Origin: a virus
Lineage: Duplodnaviria > Heunggongvirae > Uroviricota > Caudoviricetes
DNA: 21,728 bases
IMG/VR virus record: IMGVR_UViG_2529292909_000013
Location: 1-21,728 of that record
Strand: one strand, 5' to 3'
The notes under the pieces are model-generated. The model was not told the DNA's origin. It did no database searches and saw nothing but the letters and a program-made list of their open reading frames with translations. Within the stretch, counting starts at the first letter, position 1; the number at the start of each line of letters is the position of its first letter. This document shows positions 5,480 to 18,235 of the stretch, piece after piece. Made by a program: the position numbers and the translations under genes.

Positions 5480-5690
5480 AAACGGTTTGCGGGAAAAGGA
5501 GAGTTAAGTAGAATTGCAGCGGGTGCTTGAGGCTATCTGTCTCAGGCATGAACACCAAAAGGCAGATAGAGAAAAGCCCCAGTTAACATTACGCGTCCGG
5601 CAAGACGCTTAACATTAATCTGAGGCCATATCTATGCTCTACACACGTAGGTTAGCCTCTTACGTGCCGAAAGGCAAGGAGAAGCAGGCT

Positions 5691-5846
5691 ATGAAGCAGC
5701 AAAAGGCGATGCTAATCGCCCTGATCGTCATCTGTTTAACCGTCATAGTGACGGCACTGGTAACGAGGAAAGACCTCTGCGAGGTACGAATCCGAACCGG
5801 CCAGACGGAGGTCGCTGTCTTCACAGCTTACGAACCTGAGGAGTAA
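5691..5846 (+). CDS. hokD: Hok/Gef-family type I toxin (HokD/RelF-like)
   Basis: 51-aa product MKQQKAMLIALIVICLTVIVTALVTRKDLCEVRIRTGQTEVAVFTAYEPEE matches Hok-family membrane toxins as I recall them; AAGGAG RBS at 5676..5681; in-frame upstream ATG at 5634 could be the mok-like start. Confidence 0.85.
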   Translation: MKQQKAMLIALIVICLTVIVTALVTRKDLCEVRIRTGQTEVAVFTAYEPEE

Positions 5847-7628: not shown

Positions 7629-7994
7629 ATGACTGAACGCATAGAATTTGTTTTGCCTTACCCGCCAACGGTGAACACTTACTGGCGACGTCGTGGCAGC
7701 ACATATTTTGTATCAAAAGTCGGTGAGCGTTATCGCCGTGATGTGGCGCTTATTGTTCGCCAGCAGCAACTGAAATTAAACCTGTCCGGAAGGCCGGCAA
7801 TAGAAATTATTGCAGAGCCACCGGATAAGCGCCGTCGTGACCTGGACAATATCCTGAAGGCACCACTGGATGCACTGACGCATGCGGGGCTGCTCATAGA
7901 CGACGAGCAGTTTGATGAAATTAATATTGTGCGCGGTCAGCTTGTTCCTGGTGGGCGGTTGGGGATAAAAATCACAGAACTGGAGTACGCATGA
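7629..7994 (+). CDS. rusA: RusA Holliday-junction resolvase
   Basis: 121-aa product with the RusA hallmark pattern (LPYPPTVNTYWRRRG, DKRRRDLDNILKAPLDALTHAGLLIDD, GGRLGIKITE). Confidence 0.85.
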   Translation: MTERIEFVLPYPPTVNTYWRRRGSTYFVSKVGERYRRDVALIVRQQQLKLNLSGRPAIEIIAEPPDKRRRDLDNILKAPLDALTHAGLLIDDEQFDEINIVRGQLVPGGRLGIKITELEYA

Positions 7995-8680
7995 ATAACC
8001 AGTATTTACAGTTTGTTCGTGAGCAGCTCATTATCGCCACCGCCGATTTGAGTGGGGCAACAAAAGGTCAGCTTGAAGCCTGGCAGGAGAATGCCATGTT
8101 TGATACAGGGCGTTACAGACGTAAAAAAATCCGGTACCGCGATAAGGTCACTGGAAAAATGGTAACGCTGGATAATCCACCGATCCCGGGAAAGCAATCG
8201 CTGGCGAAAGGTTCATCAATTGCCCTAGTCAGTCCGGTTGAGTTTTCGACATCATCATGGCGACGCGCCGTTCTGTCTCTTGAAGAGCATCAGAAGGCGT
8301 GGGTACTGTGGGTATACAGTGAAAATCCGAGTTGGGATTATCAGGTGGTCATTGCGAAATGGGCGTGGGATAAGTTTCAGGTGCATTTTGGCACCAGAAA
8401 AATTACAGGGAAAACGCTTGAGCGTCTGAAGAAATTAATCTGGCTGGCGGCGCAGGATGTCAGGGGGAGGATTACTGGGTGTGACGTCTACCAGCGACAG
8501 GAACTTGCCAGACTGTGTGGAGTTAAGTCAGACAACTGGAGCCACAATTATGCGCACTACTGGCGTGATATGTGCGACATTTTTAAGAACCTCGACAACG
8601 AATCTTTGATTTATACCATGAAAACAAGATCGCAACAAAAAGCGACCTTTTCGCGGCGGGTTATTGCAAAAGTCAATTAA
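7991..8680 (+). CDS. Late-gene antiterminator Q-like protein
   Basis: ATGA start/stop overlap with rusA; 229 aa; canonical Q position directly after the nin/rusA genes and before the late region. Family assignment rests on position and size, not on a recognised motif. Confidence 0.5.
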   Translation: MNNQYLQFVREQLIIATADLSGATKGQLEAWQENAMFDTGRYRRKKIRYRDKVTGKMVTLDNPPIPGKQSLAKGSSIALVSPVEFSTSSWRRAVLSLEEHQKAWVLWVYSENPSWDYQVVIAKWAWDKFQVHFGTRKITGKTLERLKKLIWLAAQDVRGRITGCDVYQRQELARLCGVKSDNWSHNYAHYWRDMCDIFKNLDNESLIYTMKTRSQQKATFSRRVIAKVN

Positions 8681-8952
8681 ATCGCGTACATTTCGTGTAA
8701 ATCTGATATTTTGCTGATTTTGTACACGATGGCAAACTAAACAAAGCCTGCTGCTGAGCGGGCTATCTTTTGTCGTAAGTTGAGCGAAAGACCATCGATT
8801 TTACCTTGCTAAAACTATTCTGCTATTGCCGAGTTACCCTTTAGGTAATACACTCATCTTATAAAAGAAAGTGGTTGTTAGCCACATAGGTTAGGATGTG
8901 CGCATACTTTGTTTGTGTGCTTTTTGTGTTTTATCTGTTAACGGAGGGGAGC

Positions 8953-10494: not shown

Positions 10495-11544
10495 ATGGCT
10501 AATACTGTAAAAATATCCAGTTGTGAGTTAATCAACGCTGATTGCCTGGAATTTATCCAGACCTTACCGGAAAACTCTGTCGATCTTATAGTCACAGACC
10601 CGCCATACTTTAAAGTGAAACCCGAGGGCTGGGATAACCAGTGGAAGGGCGACGATGATTACCTGAAGTGGCTGGACCAGTGTCTGGCGCAGTTCTGGCG
10701 GGTGCTGAAACCTGTCGGAAGTCTTTACCTGTTCTGTGGTCATCGCCTGGCATCTGATATCGAAATCATGATGCGTGAACGCTTCAGTGTGCTGAACCAT
10801 ATTATCTGGGCGAAGCCGTCCGGACGCTGGAACGGATGCAACAAGGAAAGCCTGCGGGCGTATTTCCCCGCCACAGAGCGCATTCTGTTCGCGGAACATT
10901 ATCAGGGGCCGTATCGTCCGAAAGATGCCGGGTATGCGGCGAAGGGCAGTGCACTGAAACAGCATGTGATGGCCCCGCTGATTTCTTACTTTCGTGATGC
11001 GCGCGCGGCCCTGGGGATAACGGCAAAACAGATTGCAGATGCCACAGGAAAGAAAAACATGGTGTCGCACTGGTTCAGTGCCAGTCAGTGGCAGCTACCG
11101 AACGAAAGCGATTATCTGAAATTACAGTCGCTGTTTGCCCGGGTGGCAGAAGAGAAACATCAGCGCGGTGAACTGGAAAAGCCCCACCACCAGCTGGTGG
11201 ATACGTATACGTCACTGAACCGGCAGTATGTGGAGCTGCAGAGTGAATATAAGCATCTGCGGCGGTATTTTGGTGTGACGGCGCAGGTGCCGTACACGGA
11301 TGTGTGGACACATAAACCGGTGCAGTTCTATCCCGGGAAACATCCGTGCGAAAAACCGGCAGAAATGCTGCAGCAGATAATCAGCGCAAGTAGCCGTCCT
11401 GGTGATCTGGTTGCGGATTTTTTCATGGGGTCGGGTTCAACGGTAAAAGCGGCGATGGCACTGGGGCGTCGTGCGATTGGTGTTGAGCTGGAGACCGGAC
11501 GTTTTGAGCAGACAGTCAGGGAAGTTCAGGATTTAATCGTTTGA
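10495..11544 (+). CDS. DNA methyltransferase (beta-class amino-methyltransferase, N6-adenine or N4-cytosine)
   Basis: 349 aa with the catalytic motif DPPY (IVTDPPYF) near the N-terminus and an FxGxG-type AdoMet motif (FFMGSGST) near the C-terminus. No adjacent restriction endonuclease gene. Confidence 0.8.
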   Translation: MANTVKISSCELINADCLEFIQTLPENSVDLIVTDPPYFKVKPEGWDNQWKGDDDYLKWLDQCLAQFWRVLKPVGSLYLFCGHRLASDIEIMMRERFSVLNHIIWAKPSGRWNGCNKESLRAYFPATERILFAEHYQGPYRPKDAGYAAKGSALKQHVMAPLISYFRDARAALGITAKQIADATGKKNMVSHWFSASQWQLPNESDYLKLQSLFARVAEEKHQRGELEKPHHQLVDTYTSLNRQYVELQSEYKHLRRYFGVTAQVPYTDVWTHKPVQFYPGKHPCEKPAEMLQQIISASSRPGDLVADFFMGSGSTVKAAMALGRRAIGVELETGRFEQTVREVQDLIV

Positions 11545-11593
11545 AACGGATGAGATTGCAGAATTAATTACGCACCATTATTATTCTGCTCCC

Positions 11594-11669
11594 GGCCCTT
11601 TAGCTCAGTGGTGAGAGCGAGCGACTCATAATCGCCAGGTCGCTGGTTCAAATCCAGCAAGGGCCACCA
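11594..11669 (+). tRNA. ileZ: tRNA with CAT anticodon (Ile2/Met type)
   Basis: Cloverleaf folded by hand: acceptor GGCCCTT/AAGGGCC, anticodon loop cTCATaa, T-loop TTCAAAT, 3' CCA encoded. Symbol follows Stx-phage naming. Confidence 0.75.
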
Positions 11670-11676
11670 TCACATA

Positions 11677-11753
11677 CCGCCATTAGCTCATCAGGAAAGA
11701 GCGCCAGCCTTCGAAGCTGGTTGCGCGGAGTTCGGGTCCCCGAAGGCGGTCCA
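11677..11753 (+). tRNA. argN: tRNA-Arg (TCG anticodon), slightly non-canonical
   Basis: Anticodon stem CCAGC/GCTGG with loop cTTCGaa; T-loop TTCGGGT; one mismatch each in acceptor and T stems; CCA encoded. Confidence 0.55.
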
Positions 11754-11766
11754 TTATCTGTATCCT

Positions 11767-11843
11767 GCGTTGTTAGCTCAGCCGGACAGAGCAATTGCCT
11801 TCTAAGCAATCGGTCACTGGTTCGAATCCAGTACAACGCGCCA
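11767..11843 (+). tRNA. argO: tRNA-Arg (TCT anticodon)
   Basis: Acceptor GCGTTGT/ACAACGC, anticodon loop cTTCTaa, T-loop TTCGAAT, CCA encoded. Confidence 0.8.
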
Positions 11844-11855
11844 CACTTATTTTCC

Positions 11856-11882
11856 CTGGCTCGCTTTTGCGGGCTTTTTTTT
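11856..11882 (+). terminator. Putative intrinsic terminator after the tRNA cluster
   Basis: gctcgc-tttt-gcgggc hairpin (one G-U pair) followed by TTTTTTTT. Confidence 0.45.
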
Positions 11883-11887
11883 AAATG

Positions 11888-12105
11888 TCTCACAATTCAG
11901 GCGGTTGACTGTTGTCTGGTTTGCGGGGAGTTTGTTAAAAGAAACTGGCATGGTGAATCCCCCTGTGCGGAGGGGCAATCAGCGAGTAGGTATATGGGAT
12001 AATCGCGGATTCAGGTGCTGGTACTGAATTCACCGGGAGGCACCCGGCACCATGCAATGGCACATAGCGCCACTCTCCAGCCCCTCTCCGGAGGGGCTTT
12101 TCTGT
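11888..12105 (+). repeat. Copy A of a tandemly duplicated module of about 220-235 bp (TTGAC hexamer, two hairpins, intrinsic terminator)
   Basis: Shares with copy B, in the same order: CTCACAATTCAG, TTGAC(T/A), hairpin CCCCCTG(T/A)GCGGAGGGG, hairpin CACCGGGAGGCACCCGGCACCATG, terminator CCCCTCTCCGGAGGGG + T-run. Confidence 0.6.
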
Positions 12106-12355
12106 GCCGGATACATCACAGTTTCTGGAACCTTAGGTACTACAGTATCAGTCAGGGTGCTATATTTTCAGATGTGATGAAAGCCTGTCAGCAGGCAGGG
12201 CGTATCGGAAATGACCCAGTAGAGAAAACGTTGACTCAGATACCGGTGCTGAGTTACCGGGAAACCGGCATCACATGACCGCTATCCTTCCAGGCCCATC
12301 CGCTCCGGTGGGCCTTTTTACTGCAGAAAACAGGTTCCCCGTTAAATGCTATGTT

Positions 12356-12590
12356 GCTCACAATTCAGTAAGTTGACAGTTGCCTGTCAGACTGGGCATT
12401 TGTTAAAAAAATTTCGCATGGTGAATCCCCCTGAGCGGAGGGGCGACTGGTGACGGTATAATCTCTGATTATCAAAACGAGAATGACGCGGGTTTAGTGG
12501 CACCGGGCTGAACTCACCGGGAGGCACCCGGCACCATGTGCATGATGATACAGATACGCGGCTTTAGCCCCTCTCCGGAGGGGTTTTCTT
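12356..12590 (+). repeat. Copy B of the same module
   Basis: See copy A. A further intrinsic terminator (ggcccatccgctccggtgggcc + T-run, about 12293..12320) lies between the copies. Confidence 0.6.
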
Positions 12591-12818
12591 GTGGGCAAAA
12601 AAAGCCCGCGCTGGGAGACGCGGGCGGCAAGGAATAAACAATAAAACGTGAAGTAATATTTCAGCTGGCGAATAATATCCGACAGTAATCACTCTGCGCA
12701 ATAGCGCGGCCTTTTTCGTATTGCGGGCTGTTGTCTCTCTTCTGCCATTGTCCTGTAACTTCCGGACTTCAGCCCGCTCCTCATTTTACTCACAATATTA
12801 TCCCGGCCGGGAGGATTC

Positions 12819-14195
12819 ATGGCATTTAAACACTATGATGTTGTCAGGGCGGCGTCGCCGTCAGATCTTGCGGAAAAGCTGACACATAAACTGAAAGAGG
12901 GCTGGCAGCCGTTTGGTAGTCCGGTGGCCATAACCCCTTATACCCTGATGCAGGCGATTGCAGCAGAAGGTGATGTGGTCGTCAGTGGTGCAACTGAGCC
13001 GGAGTGGTACTACGTCATCGTACTGGCCGGGCAGTCCAATGCCATGGCTTACGGTGAAGGGCTTCCGCTTCCGGATTCATACGATGCGCCCCATCCGCGC
13101 ATTAAGCAACTGGCCCGTCGTAACACAGTGACTCCCGGTGGTGAAGTATGCGTATTTAACGACATCATTCCTGCTGACCATTGTCTGCATGATGTTCAGG
13201 ATATGAGTACGATTAACCATCCCCGGGCTGACCTGAGCAAAGGGCAGTACGGCTGTGTCGGACAGGGCTTACATATTGCCAAAAAACTGCTTCCGTATAT
13301 CCCTAATAATGCGGGGATCCTGCTGGTACCATGCTGTCGTGGTGGTTCGGCATTCACCCAGGGCGCGGAGGGGACATTCAGTGCGGACACGGGGGCCAGC
13401 CAGGATTCGGCACGCTGGGGTGTGGGTAAACCGTTATATCAGGATCTGCTTTTCCGCACGAAGGCAGCATTGCAGAAAAACCCGAAAAACGTTTTGCTGG
13501 CGATATGCTGGATGCAGGGGGAATTCGATATGACGAATGCCAGTTACGCCCAGCAGCCAGCAGCATTTCTTGCAATGGTACAGCAGTTCCGTGCTGACCT
13601 TGCCGGGCTGGCGGCGCAGTGCCATGGCGGCAGTGCTGCAGTTGTACCGTGGATTTGTGGCGACACGACGTATTACTGGAAAAACACATACGGCACACAG
13701 TATGACTCCGTCTACGGCGCGTACAAAAACAGGGAGAGCGACAACGTTTTCTTTGTGCCGTTCATGACCGACGGTAACGGCAACAACACGCCCACCAACT
13801 TACCGGCAGAAGACCCGGATATTGCTGATGCAGGTTATTACGGCGCGCAATCCCGTAGTAATGGTAATTGGGTATCGTCAAATCGTCCGACACATTTCAG
13901 TTCATGGGCGCGCAGGGGCATTATTTCGGATCGCCTGGCAACCGCTATTCTGAACGCAGTTGGTCGAACCAGCGCCTTCATCAGCGGTACCGCACCGGAG
14001 ATTAAACCCTCGCCCGGCGGCGACACGCCATCGGGGCCGTCTGATGGTGACACATCCGTTCGTACAGTCTCCCTGCTGCCGACAGCCGGAGAGGCTGCTG
14101 CGCAGGGCTGGACCATCACCGGCGGCAGTGTTGCGCTGGAAGATGGTGTGTTTAAGGTTACCGCGTTAACGGAGCGCGGCGTTGTCCCCTCATAG
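12819..14195 (+). CDS. Prophage NanS-p-like esterase (sialate O-acetylesterase family)
   Basis: 458-aa ORF with GGGAGG RBS; resembles the nanS-p/yjhS-like gene found downstream of the tRNA/stx region in Stx-type lambdoid phages; contains the VIVLAGQSNAMAYGE segment and a Gly/Ser/Asp-rich C-terminal tail. Confidence 0.6.
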   Translation: MAFKHYDVVRAASPSDLAEKLTHKLKEGWQPFGSPVAITPYTLMQAIAAEGDVVVSGATEPEWYYVIVLAGQSNAMAYGEGLPLPDSYDAPHPRIKQLARRNTVTPGGEVCVFNDIIPADHCLHDVQDMSTINHPRADLSKGQYGCVGQGLHIAKKLLPYIPNNAGILLVPCCRGGSAFTQGAEGTFSADTGASQDSARWGVGKPLYQDLLFRTKAALQKNPKNVLLAICWMQGEFDMTNASYAQQPAAFLAMVQQFRADLAGLAAQCHGGSAAVVPWICGDTTYYWKNTYGTQYDSVYGAYKNRESDNVFFVPFMTDGNGNNTPTNLPAEDPDIADAGYYGAQSRSNGNWVSSNRPTHFSSWARRGIISDRLATAILNAVGRTSAFISGTAPEIKPSPGGDTPSGPSDGDTSVRTVSLLPTAGEAAAQGWTITGGSVALEDGVFKVTALTERGVVPS

Positions 14196-14658
14196 TCGCC
14201 TGTCCGGTGCGATGGTGGAAGAAGCCGGATGTTTATCACTATTAATTGATGACACAGAAATGGATTCATTGAATTTCAGCACGTTTTTGTATTCGTGTTA
14301 TTGAACATCTGTTTATTTACTTTTAACATATTGATAATAAAAAGAGCTGTAAATCTTTAGATGAGTCGATTTTGTCCGGGGAAGTTCAAATGGATTTTAT
14401 GCTGACGGTTTCTGGTGTGGTTATCCTGTCCATTGCTTATACTGCAGATAAATATGGCTGCCATTTGTTATCACGTATTGGCGCTTATTGTTCGTTGATG
14501 CTGATTTTCTCGTCGCTTTTTTGAGTAAGTTATATTAATTATAACAAATAATTTTCTGTGTTATTTTCAGGCTATCCCGTCAGAGGGGAAGCCTGTACTG
14601 CCAGGGAGCGAATGGAAAACTGATGTGTCCGGTAACTGCGTGTTCTGTGAACACCATG

Positions 14659-14844
14659 TTACTTAATTATGTAATTCATACCCGAACTCTCTGTTGACAG
14701 CCTTCTTCTGCAGGCTTCAATAACCCACGCTGAAAAGTTTCCTGAACCTTTCAGATCAAGAGCGATGTTAATTTGTTCAATCATCTGGTTTGGAAATCGG
14801 ATGTTGCGGGTTGTTGTTCTGCGCGTTCTGTTCTTTGATGACAT
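14659..14844 (-). CDS. Small ribbon-helix-helix-like protein (DUF3950/YlcI-like)
   Basis: 61-aa minus-strand ORF; strand-helix-helix pattern RNIRFPNQMIEQINIALDL...FSAWVIEACRRRL typical of RHH DNA-binding proteins; sits just upstream of cos/Nu1. Confidence 0.45.
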   Translation of the reverse strand: MSSKNRTRRTTTRNIRFPNQMIEQINIALDLKGSGNFSAWVIEACRRRLSTESSGMNYIIK

Positions 14845-15019
14845 AATGTTTCCCCATATTCAGTGTTGCTGATTTGTATTATCAGAAGTTGCTTTTACGT
14901 TAATTTGACGCAGATCAATTAATACGATACCTGCGTCATAATTGATTATTTCTCGTGGTTTGATGGCGTACACACATGTTGTGATAAACCTTATATAGAT
15001 GATAATCATTATCATTTCG

Positions 15020-15230
15020 TGGGTCCTTTCCGGCGATCCGACCGGTTACGGGGCGGCGACCTCGCGGTTTTTCACTATTTATGAAAATTTTTCAGGGAAA
15101 ATCGTGTCGGTACTTCTCGAATATAACTTTTTGTTTTTTTTAATATTGCATCCGTAAAGGTCCGACATGAAAGTGTCCGAAAATGCCTTTTTCTGGCGTT
15201 TTCATGTCGGGCCTTGTATTTGATAATGGG
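15020..15230 (+). other. Lambda-like cos site (cosQ-cosN-cosB)
   Basis: GGGCGGCGACCTCGCGGTTTTTCACTATTTATGAAAATTTT at 15051.. is near-identical to the lambda left end (12-nt cohesive end GGGCGGCGACCT). The preceding GGGTCCTTTCCGGCGATCCGACCGGTTACG matches the lambda right end. Inverted repeats GTCCGACATGAAA / TTTCATGTCGGG (about 15165..15215) look like cosB R-sites. Confidence 0.75.
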
Positions 15231-15238
15231 TTGTTTTC

Positions 15239-15787
15239 ATGAAGGTTAATAAAAAGAGGCTTGCCGAAATTTTCAACGTGGACCCGCGGACGATTGAACG
15301 CTGGCAGTCTCAGGGACTCCCTTGCGCCTCCAAAGGTAGTAAGGGCATTGAATCTGTATTTGATACTGCCATGGTAATTCAGTGGTATGCGCAGAGGGAA
15401 ACTGATATCGAAAACGAAAAGCTCCGCAAAGAACTGGACGATTTGCGTGCGGCAGCGGAGTCAGATTTACAACCCGGCACCATTGACTATGAACGCTACC
15501 GGCTCACAAAAGCGCAGGCAGATGCGCAGGAACTGAAAAATGCCCGTGAAGACGGAGTAGTGCTGGAAACTGAACTGTTTACCTTCATTCTGCAACGTGT
15601 GGCACAGGAGATTTCGGGGATACTTGTGCGTGTGCCGTTGACATTACAGCGTAAATATCCGGACATTTCACCATCACACCTTGATGTGGTGAAAACTGAA
15701 ATCGCGAAAGCCTCCAATGTTTCAGCTAAGGCCGGTGAAAACGTGGGCGGGTGGATCGATGATTTCAGACGCGCAGAAGGCAGCTAA
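15239..15787 (+). CDS. Terminase small subunit Nu1
   Basis: 182-aa product closely similar to lambda Nu1 ([62 protein letters not shown]). Confidence 0.9.
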
Positions 15788-16967
15788 TGCAGCCGGTGCG
15801 ATAGCAACAGGGCTTTTATCTCTCATTATTCCTGTTCCACTGACGACAGTTCAGTGGGCCAATAAACATTATTACCTTCCTAAAGAGTCGTCTTATACCC
15901 CGGGGCGGTGGGAAACACTGCCGTTTCAGGTTGGCATCATGAACTGTATGGGCAACGATTTGATTCGCACTGTTAACCTGATTAAATCTGCCCGTGTTGG
16001 TTATACAAAGATGTTGCTGGGAGTGGAGGCTTATTTTATTGAGCATAAATCACGCAACAGCCTTCTTTTTCAGCCCACGGACTCAGCTGCTGAAGATTTT
16101 ATGAAATCTCATGTTGAGCCAACGATAAGGGAGGTTCCTGCGTTGCTGGAGCTGGCTCCATGGTTCGGAAGAAAACACCGCGATAATACGCTCACCCTGA
16201 AGCGTTTTTCCTCCGGTGTGGGTTTCTGGTGTCTGGGGGGAGCGGCAGCAAAAAACTACCGTGAAAAATCCGTGGATGTGGTCTGTTATGACGAGCTTTC
16301 CTCGTTCGAACCGGATGTTGAAAAAGAGGGTTCGCCAACCCTGCTGGGGGATAAACGTATTGAGGGCTCTGTATGGCCCAAATCCATTCGCGGCTCGACG
16401 CCTAAAATCAAAGGCTCCTGCCAGATCGAAAAAGCCGCTAACGAGTCGGCACACTTCATGCGTTTTTATGTGCCCTGTCCGCACTGTGGGGAGGAGCAGT
16501 ATCTGAAATTTGGCGATGAGTCCACGCCTTTTGGGCTTAAATGGGAGAAGGACAGCCCCGAAAGCGTTTTCTACCTCTGTGAGCATCATGGCTGCGTGAT
16601 CCATCAGTCTGAACTGGACCAGAGTAACGGGCGGTGGATCTGTGAAAACACGGGCATGTGGACCCGTGACGGTCTGACGTTTTTCAGCGCTGCGGGTAAT
16701 GAAATTCCGCCGCCGCGCTCCATCACTTTCCATATCTGGACGGCGTACAGTCCGTTCACCACCTGGGTACAGATTGTCTATGACTGGCTGGATGCACTGA
16801 AAGATCCCAACGGCCTGAAAACCTTTGTGAACACCACGCTGGGCGAGACCTGGGAAGAGGCTGTGGGCGAAAAACTCGATCACCAGGTACTGATGGATAA
16901 GGTTGTGCGTTACACGGCGGCGGTGCCTGCCCGGGTGCCCTCGTGGACTCGTCGCCTGACGCACTGA
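15759..16967 (+). pseudogene. Terminase large subunit (gpA) N-terminal fragment, truncated after about 400 codons
   Basis: From ATG 15759 the product tracks lambda gpA (ANKHYYLPKESSY..GRWETLPFQ, CPHCGEEQYLKFGD, TTLGETWEEAVGEK) up to about ...YTAAVPARV, then diverges and stops at 16967; lambda gpA is about 641 aa. Confidence 0.85.
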
Positions 16968-18235
16968 ATACGCTGAACGAGCTGGCTGCGGCGTTGGGCA
17001 ACGACCCGAATTTTGCGACCACCATGACTAACGCGCTTGCGGGTAAGCAACCGAAAGATGCCACCCTGACGGCGCTGGCCGGGCTTGCTACTGCGGCAGA
17101 CAAGTTTCCGTATTTTACGGGGAATGATGTTGCCAGTCTGGCAACCCTGACAAAAGTTGGGCGGGATATTCTTGCGAAATCGACCGTTGCCGCCGTTATC
17201 GAATACCTCGGTTTACAGGAAACGGTAAACAAGGCTGGTAACGCCGTTCAGCGTTCCGGCGATAAAATGACCGGAGAACTGAAAATTGGCACGGTGAATG
17301 CGCTGCGAATTTTCAATGATGCCTTCGGTCTTATTTTCCGTCGTTCAGAAGATTTTCTTCATTTCATTCCGACGGCTGAAGGACAAGGCGAAAACGGTGA
17401 TATCGGCCCATTAAGGCCATTCGCTATAAATCTGAGAACAGGTGCTATATCTGTCAGCCACGGGGCCAAAATTGATGGTGGGCTGGCGCTTGGTACAGAT
17501 AACGCACTGGGCGGTAATTCCATTACTCTCGGAGATAACGACACTGGTATTAAACAGGGCGGCGACGGTGTCCTTTTATTCTATTCAAATGGACAACTGG
17601 CATTTGGGCTTCAACCCGCATCTGCTGATTTTTATAAGCGGGTTGCATATATTCATCAGGGAATAATTCCTGATGGAAGTGGCGCATTTGCAGACCAGTT
17701 GAATAATGCCACCGCGCCTTTTGTTCAGACGCAGTTTGCCTGGAATCCCACTCCTGGTGGTCATTACGTGCCGATAGTTAAGGGCTTGTCCATTCGCAAT
17801 GGACAGGGCTATCCCGGCGCGGTCAGCTTTGGGTATTTACTGACAGAACAGTATGGATTTCCGGTTCCATGTATTCATATGCGTGGCGATGGCGGTAATG
17901 ATGCTTTATGGCAGTTTAACCCGAACCATAAATCCTTTATTTCACCGGGTGCTCTTATTGCGGGTGGCGTCCGTTATAACACCGATGGAAATATATTTGG
18001 TGGGTGCTGGGGGTCAAACTTAAATGATTACCTGAATAGTTCTTTTATCAGAAATGTGCGTCTGGGAGGCAGACGTTCTGACACATTATATCGCGGAGGA
18101 CTTTGCGAACCAGGTAATGGTCATGTGACAACAGGATTGCAAATTATTGGTGAGGTTGATGGAGATGACTGGATGGTGTCACGACCACTACAAAAATACA
18201 TTTCTGGTAACTGGTATAACGTTGAACAGGCATAG
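16943..18235 (+). CDS. stf: Side tail fibre protein, 3' portion (constant-region end plus variable segment Sv); 5' part missing
   Basis: Contains the conserved DALNTLNELAAALGNDPNFATTMTNALAGKQPKDATLTALAGL...AAVIEYLGL block of lambdoid Stf proteins and a C-terminal receptor-binding-like domain. No upstream shaft/N-terminal region; begins at the junction with truncated gpA. Confidence 0.75.
   Translation: MDSSPDALNTLNELAAALGNDPNFATTMTNALAGKQPKDATLTALAGLATAADKFPYFTGNDVASLATLTKVGRDILAKSTVAAVIEYLGLQETVNKAGNAVQRSGDKMTGELKIGTVNALRIFNDAFGLIFRRSEDFLHFIPTAEGQGENGDIGPLRPFAINLRTGAISVSHGAKIDGGLALGTDNALGGNSITLGDNDTGIKQGGDGVLLFYSNGQLAFGLQPASADFYKRVAYIHQGIIPDGSGAFADQLNNATAPFVQTQFAWNPTPGGHYVPIVKGLSIRNGQGYPGAVSFGYLLTEQYGFPVPCIHMRGDGGNDALWQFNPNHKSFISPGALIAGGVRYNTDGNIFGGCWGSNLNDYLNSSFIRNVRLGGRRSDTLYRGGLCEPGNGHVTTGLQIIGEVDGDDWMVSRPLQKYISGNWYNVEQA
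17196..17221 (+). other. Left crossover site (ix/gix-like) for Pin/Gin-family DNA invertase
   Basis: TTATCGAATACCTCGGTTTACAGGAA is 22/26 identical to the reverse complement of the site at 20275..20300 and resembles Mu gix. Lies in the EYLGL codons at the constant/variable junction of stf. Confidence 0.65.

What the first reader, a model, noticed from the sequence alone, without database searches (positions are those of the whole stretch)
11888..12635. Tandemly duplicated module of about 220-235 bp with hairpins and intrinsic terminators (possible small-RNA or late-promoter/terminator unit)
Two copies (11888..12105 and 12356..12590) share, in order, a CTCACAATTCAG box, a TTGAC hexamer, a CCCCCTG(T/A)GCGGAGGGG hairpin, a CCGGGAGGCACCCGG hairpin and a terminator CCCCTCTCCGGAGGGG followed by a T-run. 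A third terminator lies between them (about 12293..12320), and a minus-strand terminator-like hairpin sits at about 12607..12635. The about 200-nt distance from the TTGAC hexamer to the terminator is what a short, highly structured transcript such as a lambda 6S-type late leader RNA would need. The duplication, and the divergence between copies concentrated outside the hairpins, suggest selection on RNA structure.
Basis: seen in the sequence. Interest (0 to 1): 0.5.

Follow-up and report, generated by a model that had tools for sequence, protein, structure and literature searches.

The report
Tandem prophage STnc100 small-RNA genes
The repeated module is a tandem set of three genes of a small-RNA family (STnc100) already known from lambda-like prophages, facing a fourth known small RNA on the other strand; it is a real but ordinary feature.

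Summary
The two copies are full-length matches to Rfam RF02076 (STnc100): 136 and 161 bits against a threshold of 47. It keeps every helix through compensatory changes.

The minus-strand hairpin is the 3' end of a convergent small RNA. That RNA is 97% identical to an Hfq-bound EPEC sRNA of the EcOnc08/21/42 group.

The cluster lies between tRNA ileZ-argN-argO and the nanS-p esterase gene. Stx phages carry stx at this "moron" site, and Tree et al. (2014) described convergent sRNA pairs there.

The fold is supported by covariation across 159 homologues: 16 of 26 pairs show changes on both sides. Arrays of two to four copies recur.

The lambda 6S-type late-leader reading fails. A promoter and terminator candidate sits directly after Q, 3.2 kb upstream.

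Possibly new points: the unannotated middle copy, the recurrent mosaic triple array, and the conserved CTCACAATTCAG box. The box fits the proximal half of a CRP-like site centred at -61.5 from the inferred start. The transcription start of these units is unresolved.

Verdict: already known; low interest.

The parts
11594..11882 (+). Context: tRNA ileZ-type (CAT), argN (TCG) and argO (TCT) genes with their terminator (11858-11875 plus T-run). Homology with Stx2 prophage Sp5 runs to the end of this terminator and then breaks.
   Evidence: ARAGORN, Rfam tRNA, terminator scan, alignment with Sakai Sp5
11876..11897 (+). Copy 1: CRP-like 22-mer TTTTTTTAAATGTCTCACAATT, 10 of 16 consensus positions, centred at -61.5 from the inferred start. 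Its right half is part of the conserved box CTCACAATTCAG (11889-11900). Its left half is the T-run of the tRNA terminator.
   Evidence: the geometry is inferred
11912..11941 (+). Copy 1: inferred proximal sigma-70 promoter. -35 TTGTCT 11912-11917, 18-nt spacer, extended -10 TGtTAAAAG 11933-11941.
   Evidence: In register with the PasD1/PasD2 5' ends. The simple promoter scan did not call it.
11948..12102 (+). STnc100 copy 1, about 155 nt if it starts at G11948. P1 11948-11955/12048-12055; P2 11960-11964/11971-11975; variable P3 region 11976-12006; P4 12007-12014/12024-12031; P5 12033-12037/12043-12047; 3' linker 12056-12078; terminator 12079-12098 plus U-tail.
   Evidence: Rfam RF02076 at 136.3 bits, 11919-12109; model R1 at 116.7 bits; MFE fold -66.5 kcal/mol, z = -2.4
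12114..12166 (+). Middle copy, upstream region: degenerate box ATCACAGTTTCTG (12114-12126) and extended -10 TGcTATATT (12158-12166). Box and -10 are conserved between two middle-copy variants, while the spacer between them diverges.
12172..12320 (+). Third, divergent family member, not reported at Rfam's gathering threshold. P1 AUGUGAUG 12172-12179 / CAUCACAU 12269-12276; P2 12183-12187/12192-12196; P4 12232-12239/12249-12256; P5 12257-12260/12265-12268; linker with UAUCCUUCC; terminator 12292-12315 plus U5.
   Evidence: Rfam in E-value mode: 30.1 bits, E = 1.7e-4, full-length; R1: 55.8 bits; the MFE fold gives the same architecture, z = -3.1
12344..12365 (+). Copy 2: CRP-like 22-mer AAATGCTATGTTGCTCACAATT, 13 of 16 consensus positions. 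This is the single best match in the whole 21.7-kb window. It is centred at -61.5 from G12416 and contains the start of the box CTCACAATTCAG (12357-12368).
   Evidence: family comparison
12380..12409 (+). Copy 2: inferred proximal promoter. -35 TTGCCT 12380-12385, 18-nt spacer, extended -10 TGtTAAAAA 12401-12409.
12416..12589 (+). STnc100 copy 2, about 174 nt if it starts at G12416. Structured core 12416-12539, linker 12540-12565, terminator 12566-12585 plus U-tail.
   Evidence: Rfam RF02076 at 161 bits, 12387-12596; R1 at 103 bits. Its own MFE fold differs from the family fold.
12597..12778 (-). Convergent partner sRNA of the EcOnc08/21/42 type. Terminator 12604-12625, U-tail from the A-run at 12597-12603, seed CCUUGCC (+ strand GGCAAGG, 12626-12632). 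Its 3' end lies about 6 nt from the 3' end of copy 2.
   Evidence: 97% identical to EPEC E2348C_1409.E2348C_1408.IGR (coordinates). The Sakai northern probe given can be read exactly on the + strand of the window sequence (by eye). RIL-seq partners and seed.
12819..14195 (+). Context: nanS-p-type esterase gene (DUF1737 plus SASA). This is the conserved gene downstream of the moron site.
   Evidence: Pfam; RefSeq annotation of identical loci

Best explanation
The region is a cluster of small-RNA genes in the 'moron' site of a lambdoid prophage. The site lies downstream of Q/pR' and the ileZ-argN-argO tRNA genes, and upstream of nanS-p. Stx phages carry stx there.

Three head-to-tail genes of the STnc100 family lie on the + strand (Rfam RF02076; sisters of PasD1/PasD2 = EcOnc13; the same family as EcOnc27 = sRNA103 downstream of stx2B). 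Each appears to have its own promoter and its own intrinsic terminator.

Each RNA folds into a conserved scaffold. An 8-bp closing helix (P1) encloses hairpins P2, P4 and P5 and a hypervariable insert (P3). A variable single-stranded 3' linker and a terminator hairpin with a U-tail follow.

A fourth sRNA, of the EcOnc08/21/42 type, is transcribed convergently and ends a few bases from copy 2.

Inferred mechanism, by homology and not shown here:
- The RNAs are made in the lysogen.
- They bind Hfq through the terminator and U-tail.
- They act in trans by base pairing through their variable single-stranded parts. In PasD the seed lies in the 3' linker. The three paralogues would therefore have different target sets.
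- Their terminators also block read-through into nanS-p and beyond until Q-modified polymerase overrides them.
For: Shown here:
- Rfam hits of 136 and 161 bits against a threshold of 47. The third copy scores 30.1 bits, E = 1.7e-4, against Rfam and 55.8 bits against my model.
- PasD1/PasD2 of E2348/69 align to the copies over the promoter and scaffold.
- On a MAFFT alignment, 91.9% of cells pair against about 45% in the slid controls, and 7 of 8 P4 pairs change on both sides.
- On the model-fitted alignment, 97.7% of cells pair and 16 of 26 pairs are compensatory: P1 5/8, P2 3/5, P4 8/8.
- Copy 1 and the middle copy fold on their own into the same architecture.
- Independent promoter types all place a sigma-70 -10 in register with a start at GCAUGG. 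PasD has TTGACT-N17/18-TATTAAAAA, L165 has TTGACT-N18-TATTTT, and the middle copy has TGcTATATT.
- Among 126 STnc100-family sites in the window, the two EPEC PasD loci and 120 viral loci: 108 single, 4 double, 13 triple, 1 quadruple.
- 353 of 5426 complete E. coli genomes hold at least 80% of 11850-12830.
- The minus-strand RNA is 97% identical to the EPEC sRNA.

From papers:
- PasD1/2 were confirmed by northern blot, which also showed Hfq-dependent stability; they have RIL-seq targets and are 172-173 nt long (PMC8550237).
- EDL933 has 11 transcribed STnc100 copies, one confirmed by northern blot (PMC5331693).
- EcOnc27/sRNA103 binds Hfq. Convergent sRNA dyads lie between pR' and the lysis genes in at least eight Sakai prophages (PMC4104026, PMC7873438).
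- PasD and STnc100 share an ancestor (bioRxiv 10.64898/2026.05.13.724894).
Against: - No expression data exist for this window itself.
- The 5' end is not settled. The Sakai EcOnc27 Hfq-crosslink cluster covers -40 to +40 around GCAUGG, and its northern bands are about 235 and 247 nt. The proximal promoter predicts about 175 nt. Class-A units may therefore start near the CTCACAATTCAG box, or the longer species may be processed stx2 read-through.
- The simple promoter scan did not call the inferred promoters.
- The MFE fold of copy 2 is not the family fold.
- The U-tails are short: 4 U in copies 1 and 2.
- No direct target of any STnc100-type RNA has been demonstrated. The sRNA103 effect on espA appears to be indirect, and the mechanism for fimZ is not clear.
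- The model-fitted alignment leans towards the structure.
Confidence: 0.85

Rival explanations
1. Late-leader units. Each copy would be a pR'-type late promoter plus tR' terminator. It would make a lambda 6S-/StxS-like RNA on which Q loads.
For: The size, the strong structure and the terminators resemble 6S RNA. The region is in the late operon.
Against: - Q (PF06323) ends at 8680. A promoter-like site at 8664-8692 and a terminator at 8745-8764 lie immediately after it, which is the canonical place.
- The module is 3.2 kb downstream, after ORFs and three tRNA genes.
- The same family is found next to Q proteins of two Pfam families: PF06323 in this window and PF03589 beside PasD. It also lies downstream of stx2B.
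- Homologues are Hfq-bound RNAs made in uninduced lysogens.
Confidence: 0.03
2. Mainly cis-acting elements. The units would serve as stacked terminators or insulators, or as processing and stability elements of the late transcript. They would keep nanS-p and downstream genes silent in the lysogen. The short RNAs would be by-products.
For: - Three + strand terminators in a row, plus a convergent one, sit directly upstream of nanS-p.
- The Sakai EcOnc27 species are longer than expected from the proximal promoter, which is compatible with processed read-through.
Against: - A terminator function does not explain the covarying 100-nt scaffold.
- It does not explain the -10 elements kept in register in four promoter types.
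- It does not explain the RIL-seq target sets of the homologous PasD RNAs.
Confidence: 0.1
3. Protein-binding or decoy RNA. The conserved scaffold would be the functional part, titrating a host or phage protein. The variable parts would be neutral.
For: The scaffold (P1, P2, P5) is far more conserved than any putative seed: 93% and 85% against about 60%. The P5 sequence ACCGGGAGGCACCCGG is nearly invariant with no compensatory change (0 of 5 pairs), which suggests sequence-specific recognition.
Against: PasD has lost the 3' arm of P5 and is still an abundant Hfq-dependent sRNA with a seed and targets. No partner protein other than Hfq is known.
Confidence: 0.12
4. Protein-coding: the ORFs overlapping the module (11721-12002, 12015-12278, 11648-11893 on the minus strand) are real small genes.
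For: The ORFs exist. RefSeq annotates a partial 'hypothetical protein' pseudogene over copy 1 and a 132-aa ORF antisense to PasD1.
Against: No Pfam family matches any of them. They run across tRNA genes, terminators and RNA helices. The substitution pattern is that of paired helices.
Confidence: 0.02

Closest known systems
STnc100 (Rfam RF02076), including EcOnc27 = sRNA103 downstream of stx2B in O157:H7
   Same: Copies 1 and 2 match the full model at 136 and 161 bits. They share the scaffold, the CCCCTCTCCGGAGGGG-type terminator, the class-A upstream region with the CTCACAATTCAG box, and the position next to a convergent sRNA upstream of nanS-p.
   Different: Here there are three genes in tandem and no stx. 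The 3' linkers differ from that of EcOnc27 (AGUAUACAGAGAUUAGGCAUAUACC). The middle copy falls below Rfam's threshold.
PasD1/PasD2 of EPEC E2348/69 (= EcOnc13 in Sakai)
   Same: Homologous promoter register, P1, P2 and P4, and the same prophage neighbourhood (Q ... sRNA ... esterase or lysis genes). This is the best experimental proxy, with northern blots, Hfq dependence and RIL-seq.
   Different: PasD lacks the 3' arm of P5 and lacks the CTCACAATTCAG box. It has a different 3' tail carrying the seed UUGUGAG and a different terminator. It does not reach the Rfam threshold. Zhu et al. report that multiple PasD copies are distal rather than tandem.
Convergent sRNA dyads at the lambdoid moron site (AsxR/EcOnc27, AgvB/EcOnc06; Tree et al. 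2014)
   Same: A + strand sRNA and a minus-strand sRNA with facing 3' ends lie between the moron and the conserved downstream ORF.
   Different: The + side is expanded to three paralogues. The minus-strand partner is the EcOnc08/21/42 type, with no AsxR or AgvB Rfam match even at E <= 10. By northern blot or RNA-seq in homologues it is longer, about 180-270 nt.
Lambda 6S RNA / StxS (pR'-tR' late leader)
   Same: A short, structured, terminated transcript of the late region.
   Different: Those arise from the Q-loading promoter directly after Q. Here that position holds its own promoter and terminator candidate at 8664-8764.
Tandem paralogous sRNAs such as OmrA/OmrB or PrrF1/PrrF2 (from my own knowledge; also named)
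   Same: Adjacent duplicated sRNA genes, each with its own promoter and terminator, and partly divergent pairing regions.
   Different: Those are core-genome pairs with conserved seeds. Here the array is phage-borne, mosaic and has up to four members.

Membership tests
STnc100 (Rfam RF02076) | Covariance-model score at or above the curated gathering score (47 bits) | tested here: met
   Copy 1 scores 136.3 bits and copy 2 scores 161 bits, both over model positions 1-206. The middle copy scores 30.1 bits, E = 1.7e-4, and does not meet the threshold on its own.
STnc100 (Rfam RF02076) | Closing helix enclosing hairpins, kept by compensatory change | tested here: met
   91.9% paired against about 45% in slid controls on the MAFFT alignment. 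97.7% paired and 16 of 26 pairs compensatory on the model-fitted alignment. The P1 of the middle copy, AUGUGAUG/CAUCACAU, replaces GCAUGGUG/CACCAUGC.
STnc100 (Rfam RF02076) | Intrinsic terminator at the 3' end | tested here: met
   Terminators at 12079-12098, 12292-12315 and 12566-12585, each followed by a T-run.
STnc100 (Rfam RF02076) | Expressed, Hfq-associated RNA | not testable with these tools
   Known only for homologues: EDL933 RNA-seq and northern blot, EcOnc27 Hfq crosslinking, and PasD northern blot and RIL-seq.
PasD (EcOnc13) | 3' linker seed UUGUGAG and the GGCUGCGCAU(G/U)GCGC(G/A)GCC terminator | tested here: not met
   The alignment shows different linkers and terminators in all window copies. 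There is no TTGTGAG within the three RNAs (sequence).
PasD (EcOnc13) | Scaffold homology (P1, P2, P4) and promoter register | tested here: met
   R1 finds PasD1 and PasD2 at 49.1 bits.
Lambda 6S / StxS late leader | Transcribed from pR' immediately downstream of the Q gene and ended at tR' | tested here: not met
   Q is at 7991-8680. The candidate promoter (8664-8692) and terminator (8745-8764) lie there. The module starts at 11889.
Convergent sRNA dyad of the moron site (Tree et al. 2014) | Two sRNA genes with facing 3' ends between the moron and the conserved downstream ORF, downstream of pR' | tested here: met
   Copy 2 ends at about 12589 and the minus-strand RNA ends at about 12597. nanS-p starts at 12819. 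The flanks are shared with Sakai Sp5.
AsxR / AgvB anti-sRNAs (RF02703 / RF02702) | Match of the minus-strand partner to the family models | tested here: not met
   No hit at E <= 10 on 11840-12830. The AsxR segment of Sp5 does not align with the window.
Class I CRP-dependent promoter (hypothesis for the CTCACAATTCAG box) | 22-bp site resembling AAATGTGATCTAGATCACATTT, centred near -61.5 | tested here: inconclusive
   Copy 2 scores 13/16, the best of 21,707 positions in the window. Copy 1 scores 10/16. Family members reach 14-15/16. In 44 of 62 distinct upstream sequences the best match lies at -60.5 to -62.5. Against this: G7 of the left half-site is never present, conservation extends beyond a CRP half-site (ATTCAG), and the geometry depends on an inferred start.
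Class I CRP-dependent promoter (hypothesis for the CTCACAATTCAG box) | cAMP-CRP binding and dependence on crp/cya | not testable with these tools
   None of the papers read mentions it. Zhu et al. contains no occurrence of 'promoter' or 'CRP'.

The most novel reading that the evidence does not exclude
The most novel reading has three parts.

1. STnc100-family genes form recurrent, recombining arrays of two to four cassettes at the moron site. A covarying scaffold is kept, while the P3 insert and the 3' linker are swapped or diversified.
2. The arrays include a previously unannotated sub-family, the middle copy, which falls below Rfam's threshold.
3. The cassettes share a conserved upstream site, the CTCACAATTCAG box. 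It would be the proximal half of a CRP-like site at -61.5, which would put prophage sRNA arrays under catabolite control. Alternatively, the box is the conserved 5' end of a longer RNA. Its CUCACAA is complementary to the PasD seed UUGUGAG, so STnc100-type RNAs and PasD could titrate each other.
Probability: 0.25. Interest if true: 0.4.

Novelty: already known. Interest (0 to 1): 0.2.

Why it matters
For annotation, about 1 kb that RefSeq leaves blank or labels as a 'hypothetical protein' pseudogene can be labelled as four sRNA genes. This applies to UTI89, S88, IHE3034, the E. coli type strain and about 350 other complete genomes.

For biology, the locus shows that the sRNA dyad described at the stx site of EHEC prophages also exists in ExPEC prophages without stx. 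There it is expanded to three paralogues. The family keeps its scaffold and varies the parts that serve as seed in PasD.

If the conserved upstream box is a CRP site, or the true 5' end of the RNA, it would give a first handle on how this very abundant but functionally unassigned family is controlled.

Tried and rejected
- **Whole-species pattern scan.** I scanned genome contigs with ATGGTGAATCCNCCT. With 14 specified bases the pattern was too short. The comparison therefore rests on IMG/VR viral contigs and on E. coli and phage records.
- **RNA-RNA complementarity.** I tested the three sRNAs against the minus-strand sRNA and the nanS-p 5' region, and the upstream leaders of copies 1 and 2 against the PasD tail. 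Nothing exceeded shuffles, with z between -1.4 and +0.5 (the first attempt timed out). The 7-bp CUCACAA/UUGUGAG match is therefore only a lead.
- **Overlapping ORFs.** No Pfam family matches any of them.
- **AsxR/AgvB identity of the partner.** Rejected: no Rfam match.
- **TTGAC as -35 of a promoter with a good -10 at 17 +/- 1 nt.** No such -10 exists: the sequence there is GCATTT/CATTTG.
- **The box as a sigma-54, LexA, IHF, Cra, marbox or 434-type operator site.** I compared these by eye with consensus sequences recalled from memory. None fitted as well as CRP, and none was tested rigorously.
- **An upstream promoter with TTAAAT/TGTAAT as -10, starting at the box.** It would give RNAs of 211-230 nt here and would fit the 235/247-nt EcOnc27 bands. 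It has no -35 and its distance to the box is not conserved: copy 2 is shifted by 7 nt. I kept it as an open alternative.
- **Host of the four-copy array L129.** There is no near match in the phage collection.
Full report
**1.

The repeat finder gives three collinear blocks:
- 88 nt at 80% identity (11889-11976 and 12357-12444);
- 31 nt at 97% identity (12024-12054 and 12508-12538);
- 28 nt at 89% identity (12079-12106 and 12566-12593).

The region 11400-13000 holds ten terminator-like sites against 1.9 +/- 1.4 in shuffles. The CTCACAATTCAG box occurs only at 11889 and 12357 in the whole window. The minus-strand hairpin is at 12604-12625, slightly left of the coordinates given.

**2. What the copies are**

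A scan of the window against Rfam at curated thresholds returns two full-length matches to RF02076, STnc100. They lie at 11919-12109 (136.3 bits) and 12387-12596 (161 bits); the gathering score is 47.

With permissive thresholds a third full-length match appears between them, at 12148-12321 (30.1 bits, E = 1.7e-4). In it the closing helix GCAUGGUG/CACCAUGC is replaced by AUGUGAUG/CAUCACAU.

Folded alone, copy 1 and this middle copy adopt the same architecture. An 8-bp closing helix P1 encloses hairpin P2, a variable stretch, an 8-bp hairpin P4 and a short hairpin P5. A single-stranded linker and a terminator follow. The minimum-energy fold of copy 2 differs.

**3. Context**

The window is the late region of a lambdoid prophage:
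- RusA 7629-7994;
- Q antiterminator 7991-8680;
- two unassigned ORFs;
- DNA methylase 10495-11544;
- tRNA ileZ-type, argN and argO at 11594-11843;
- the sRNA cluster;
- a DUF1737/SASA esterase (nanS-p type) at 12819-14195;
- Nu1 and gpA terminase genes.

The 981 bases 11850-12830 are 99-100% identical in many complete E. coli genomes, among them UTI89, S88, IHE3034 and the type strain. In all, 353 of 5426 genomes hold at least 80% of the stretch. RefSeq annotates no RNA there, only a partial "hypothetical protein" pseudogene.

Compared with Stx2 prophage Sp5 of Sakai, homology runs through argO and its terminator and then breaks. Sp5 has the stx2 promoter and stx2AB there. Homology resumes at the box upstream of the STnc100 copy that follows stx2B. 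Copy 1 plus the middle copy therefore occupy the place of stx2AB.

**4. What is known about the family**

- STnc100 is among the most frequently annotated sRNAs in bacterial genomes and has no assigned function (PMC9029176).
- EDL933 has 11 transcribed copies, one confirmed by northern blot (PMC5331693).
- The copy after stx2B is the Hfq-bound EcOnc27, also called sRNA103. Its overexpression raises fimZ and espA transcripts; the espA effect appears indirect and the fimZ mechanism is not clear.
- Tree et al. described convergent sRNA pairs at this moron site in at least eight Sakai prophages.
- PasD1 and PasD2 of EPEC are 172-173 nt. Northern blots confirmed their sizes and their Hfq-dependent stability, and they have RIL-seq targets.
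- Zhu, Shabalina and Storz (2026 preprint) conclude that PasD and STnc100 share an ancestor. They state that multiple PasD copies are distal rather than tandem.

My alignment of PasD1 and PasD2 with the window copies confirms homology over the promoter, P1, P2 and P4. It also shows that PasD lacks the 3' arm of P5 and has a different 3' tail.

**5. The minus-strand hairpin**

The minus strand of 12597-12778 is 97% identical to the EPEC RIL-seq sRNA E2348C_1409.E2348C_1408.IGR, a homologue of EcOnc08/21/42. The northern probe that Tree et al. used for that group can be read as an exact + strand match in the window sequence.

The seed CCUUGCC is retained; it is encoded as GGCAAGG at 12626-12632. 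In EPEC this RNA forms chimeras with cfa, dppA, tir and others. It is not an AsxR or AgvB homologue.

**6. Comparative test of the fold**

A pattern scan of IMG/VR returned 120 loci, with 42 distinct scaffold sequences.

On a plain MAFFT alignment, the fold derived from copy 1 gave 91.9% paired cells, against 36-46% when the 3' partners are slid. Seven of eight P4 pairs changed on both sides. P1 could not vary in this set, because the search pattern fixed it.

A covariance model built from that alignment (R1) found 159 matches in the window, the two EPEC PasD loci and the 120 viral loci. These included the middle type and PasD.

On the model-fitted alignment, 97.7% of cells pair and 16 of 26 pairs show compensatory change: P1 5/8, P2 3/5, P4 8/8 and P5 0/5. 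That alignment leans towards the structure. The P1 variants AUAUGGCG/CGCCAUAU and GCGUGGUG/CACCACGC can, however, be read directly in locus L129.

**7. Arrays**

Of 126 sites, 108 hold one copy, 4 hold two, 13 hold three and one holds four. All triples have the same plan: a standard copy, a middle-type copy, then a standard copy. The flanking variants differ between triples, with scaffold lengths of 108/105/124, 109/105/108, 123/105/126 and others. This points to recombination between cassettes.

Across distinct units, mean pairwise identity by segment is:

| Segment | Mean identity |
|---|---|
| P1/P2 | 93% |
| P4/P5/P1' | 85% |
| Terminator | 83% |
| Upstream 70 nt | 73% |
| 3' linker | 61% |
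| P3 region | 59% |

The variable parts include the segment that carries the seed in PasD.

**8. Promoters and the start site (inferred)**

The 5' ends of PasD, taken from RNA-seq coverage and northern size, fall on the G of GCAUGG. In the window that corresponds to G11948 and G12416. Upstream lie TTGTCT/TTGCCT, an 18-nt spacer and an extended -10, TGtTAAAAG/A.

The middle copy has TGcTATATT in the same register. A divergent member, L165, has TTGACT-N18-TATTTT and no box at all. Four promoter types that all aim at the same start argue for that start.

Against this, the Sakai EcOnc27 crosslink cluster covers -40 to +40, and its northern bands are about 235 and 247 nt. Some transcripts therefore begin near or upstream of the box. 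They could come from an upstream start or be processed stx2 read-through. This is unresolved.

**9. The conserved box**

CTCACAATTCAG, or a close variant, lies at about -59 to -48 in nearly all class-A upstream regions, including distant ones. A degenerate form is present upstream of the middle copy.

Together with the 10 bases before it, the box resembles a CRP site centred at -61.5. Copy 2 scores 13 of 16 consensus positions, the single best of 21,707 positions in the window. Relatives reach 14-15 of 16. In 44 of 62 distinct upstream sequences the best match sits at -60.5 to -62.5.

There are weak points:
- The left half-site never has G7.
- In copy 1 the left half-site is just the T-run of the tRNA terminator.
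- Conservation extends beyond a CRP half-site.
- I noticed the geometry only after seeing the box.

I rate this at about 0.3.

**10. The late-leader reading**

A promoter-like TTGCAA-17-TACATT (8664-8692) and a terminator (8745-8764) lie directly after Q. That is where a 6S/StxS-type leader belongs. The module is not in that position.

**11. Verdict**

This is a real feature, correctly seen and correctly suspected to be small-RNA genes under selection for structure. It belongs to a family and a locus type that are already described. The additions from this work are modest:
- the array is triple;
- the middle member is a divergent, unannotated sub-type;
- such arrays recur and are mosaic;
- the upstream box is a conserved promoter-region or 5'-end element that deserves a direct test.

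Noticed in passing
window 5521-5696 (+): Full-length match to the Rfam sok antitoxin family (RF01794, 117 bits). This indicates a hok/sok-type toxin-antitoxin locus in the prophage early/nin region.
   Followed up: no
window 8664-8772 (+): Candidate pR' (TTGCAA-17-TACATT) and tR' (8745-8764 plus T-run) directly after the Q gene. This would be a late leader of about 70 nt, of the 6S/StxS type. The second-best CRP-like match of the window (12/16, but only 6/10 in the core) also lies here, at 8699-8720.
   Followed up: partly
window 12694-12709 (+): A + strand terminator-like hairpin, CTGCGCAATAGCGCGG followed by CCTTTTT, upstream of nanS-p. It is conserved in Sakai Sp5 with changes only in the loop. 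On the minus strand it would be a 5' hairpin of the convergent sRNA.
   Followed up: no
window 12819-18235: The prophage looks defective. The nanS-p ORF is 458 aa, against 618 aa in an otherwise identical locus (L001). No holin or lysozyme ORFs lie between 14195 and Nu1 (15239). The gpA ORF 15717-16967 carries only the first 81 positions of the nuclease domain, and the following ORF (16943-18235) matches no Pfam family.
   Followed up: no
L005 1338-1443 (E2348/69 prophage PP6): The STnc100 copy next to the EPEC convergent sRNA is cut at its 5' end by an ISEc13 insertion. In that strain only the minus-strand partner of the dyad is intact.
   Followed up: partly
L129 2326-3350 (IMG/VR UViG_2861053794_000003): Four tandem family members in a host that has no near match in the phage collection. 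The first two lack the usual CCCCTCTCCGGAGGGG terminator. P1 shows compensatory variants.
   Followed up: partly
window 11869-11881 and 12597-12609: A perfect 13-nt inverted repeat, GCGGGCTTTTTTT / AAAAAAAGCCCGC. It links the tRNA terminator and the minus-strand sRNA terminator and brackets the whole three-gene array. It may be chance similarity between terminators, or a recombination boundary.
   Followed up: no
window 11594-11669: ARAGORN calls this gene tRNA-Met (CAT). RefSeq annotates the identical gene as tRNA-Ile (ileZ-type, with lysidine-modified CAT).
   Followed up: no
L154, L150, L204 and others (viral loci): Hybrid units. A standard STnc100 scaffold is joined to a long U/C-rich 3' tail ending in the PasD-type terminator GGCTGCGCATGGCGCGGCC, behind a PasD-type promoter. 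This indicates modular exchange of promoter, scaffold and tail.
   Followed up: no
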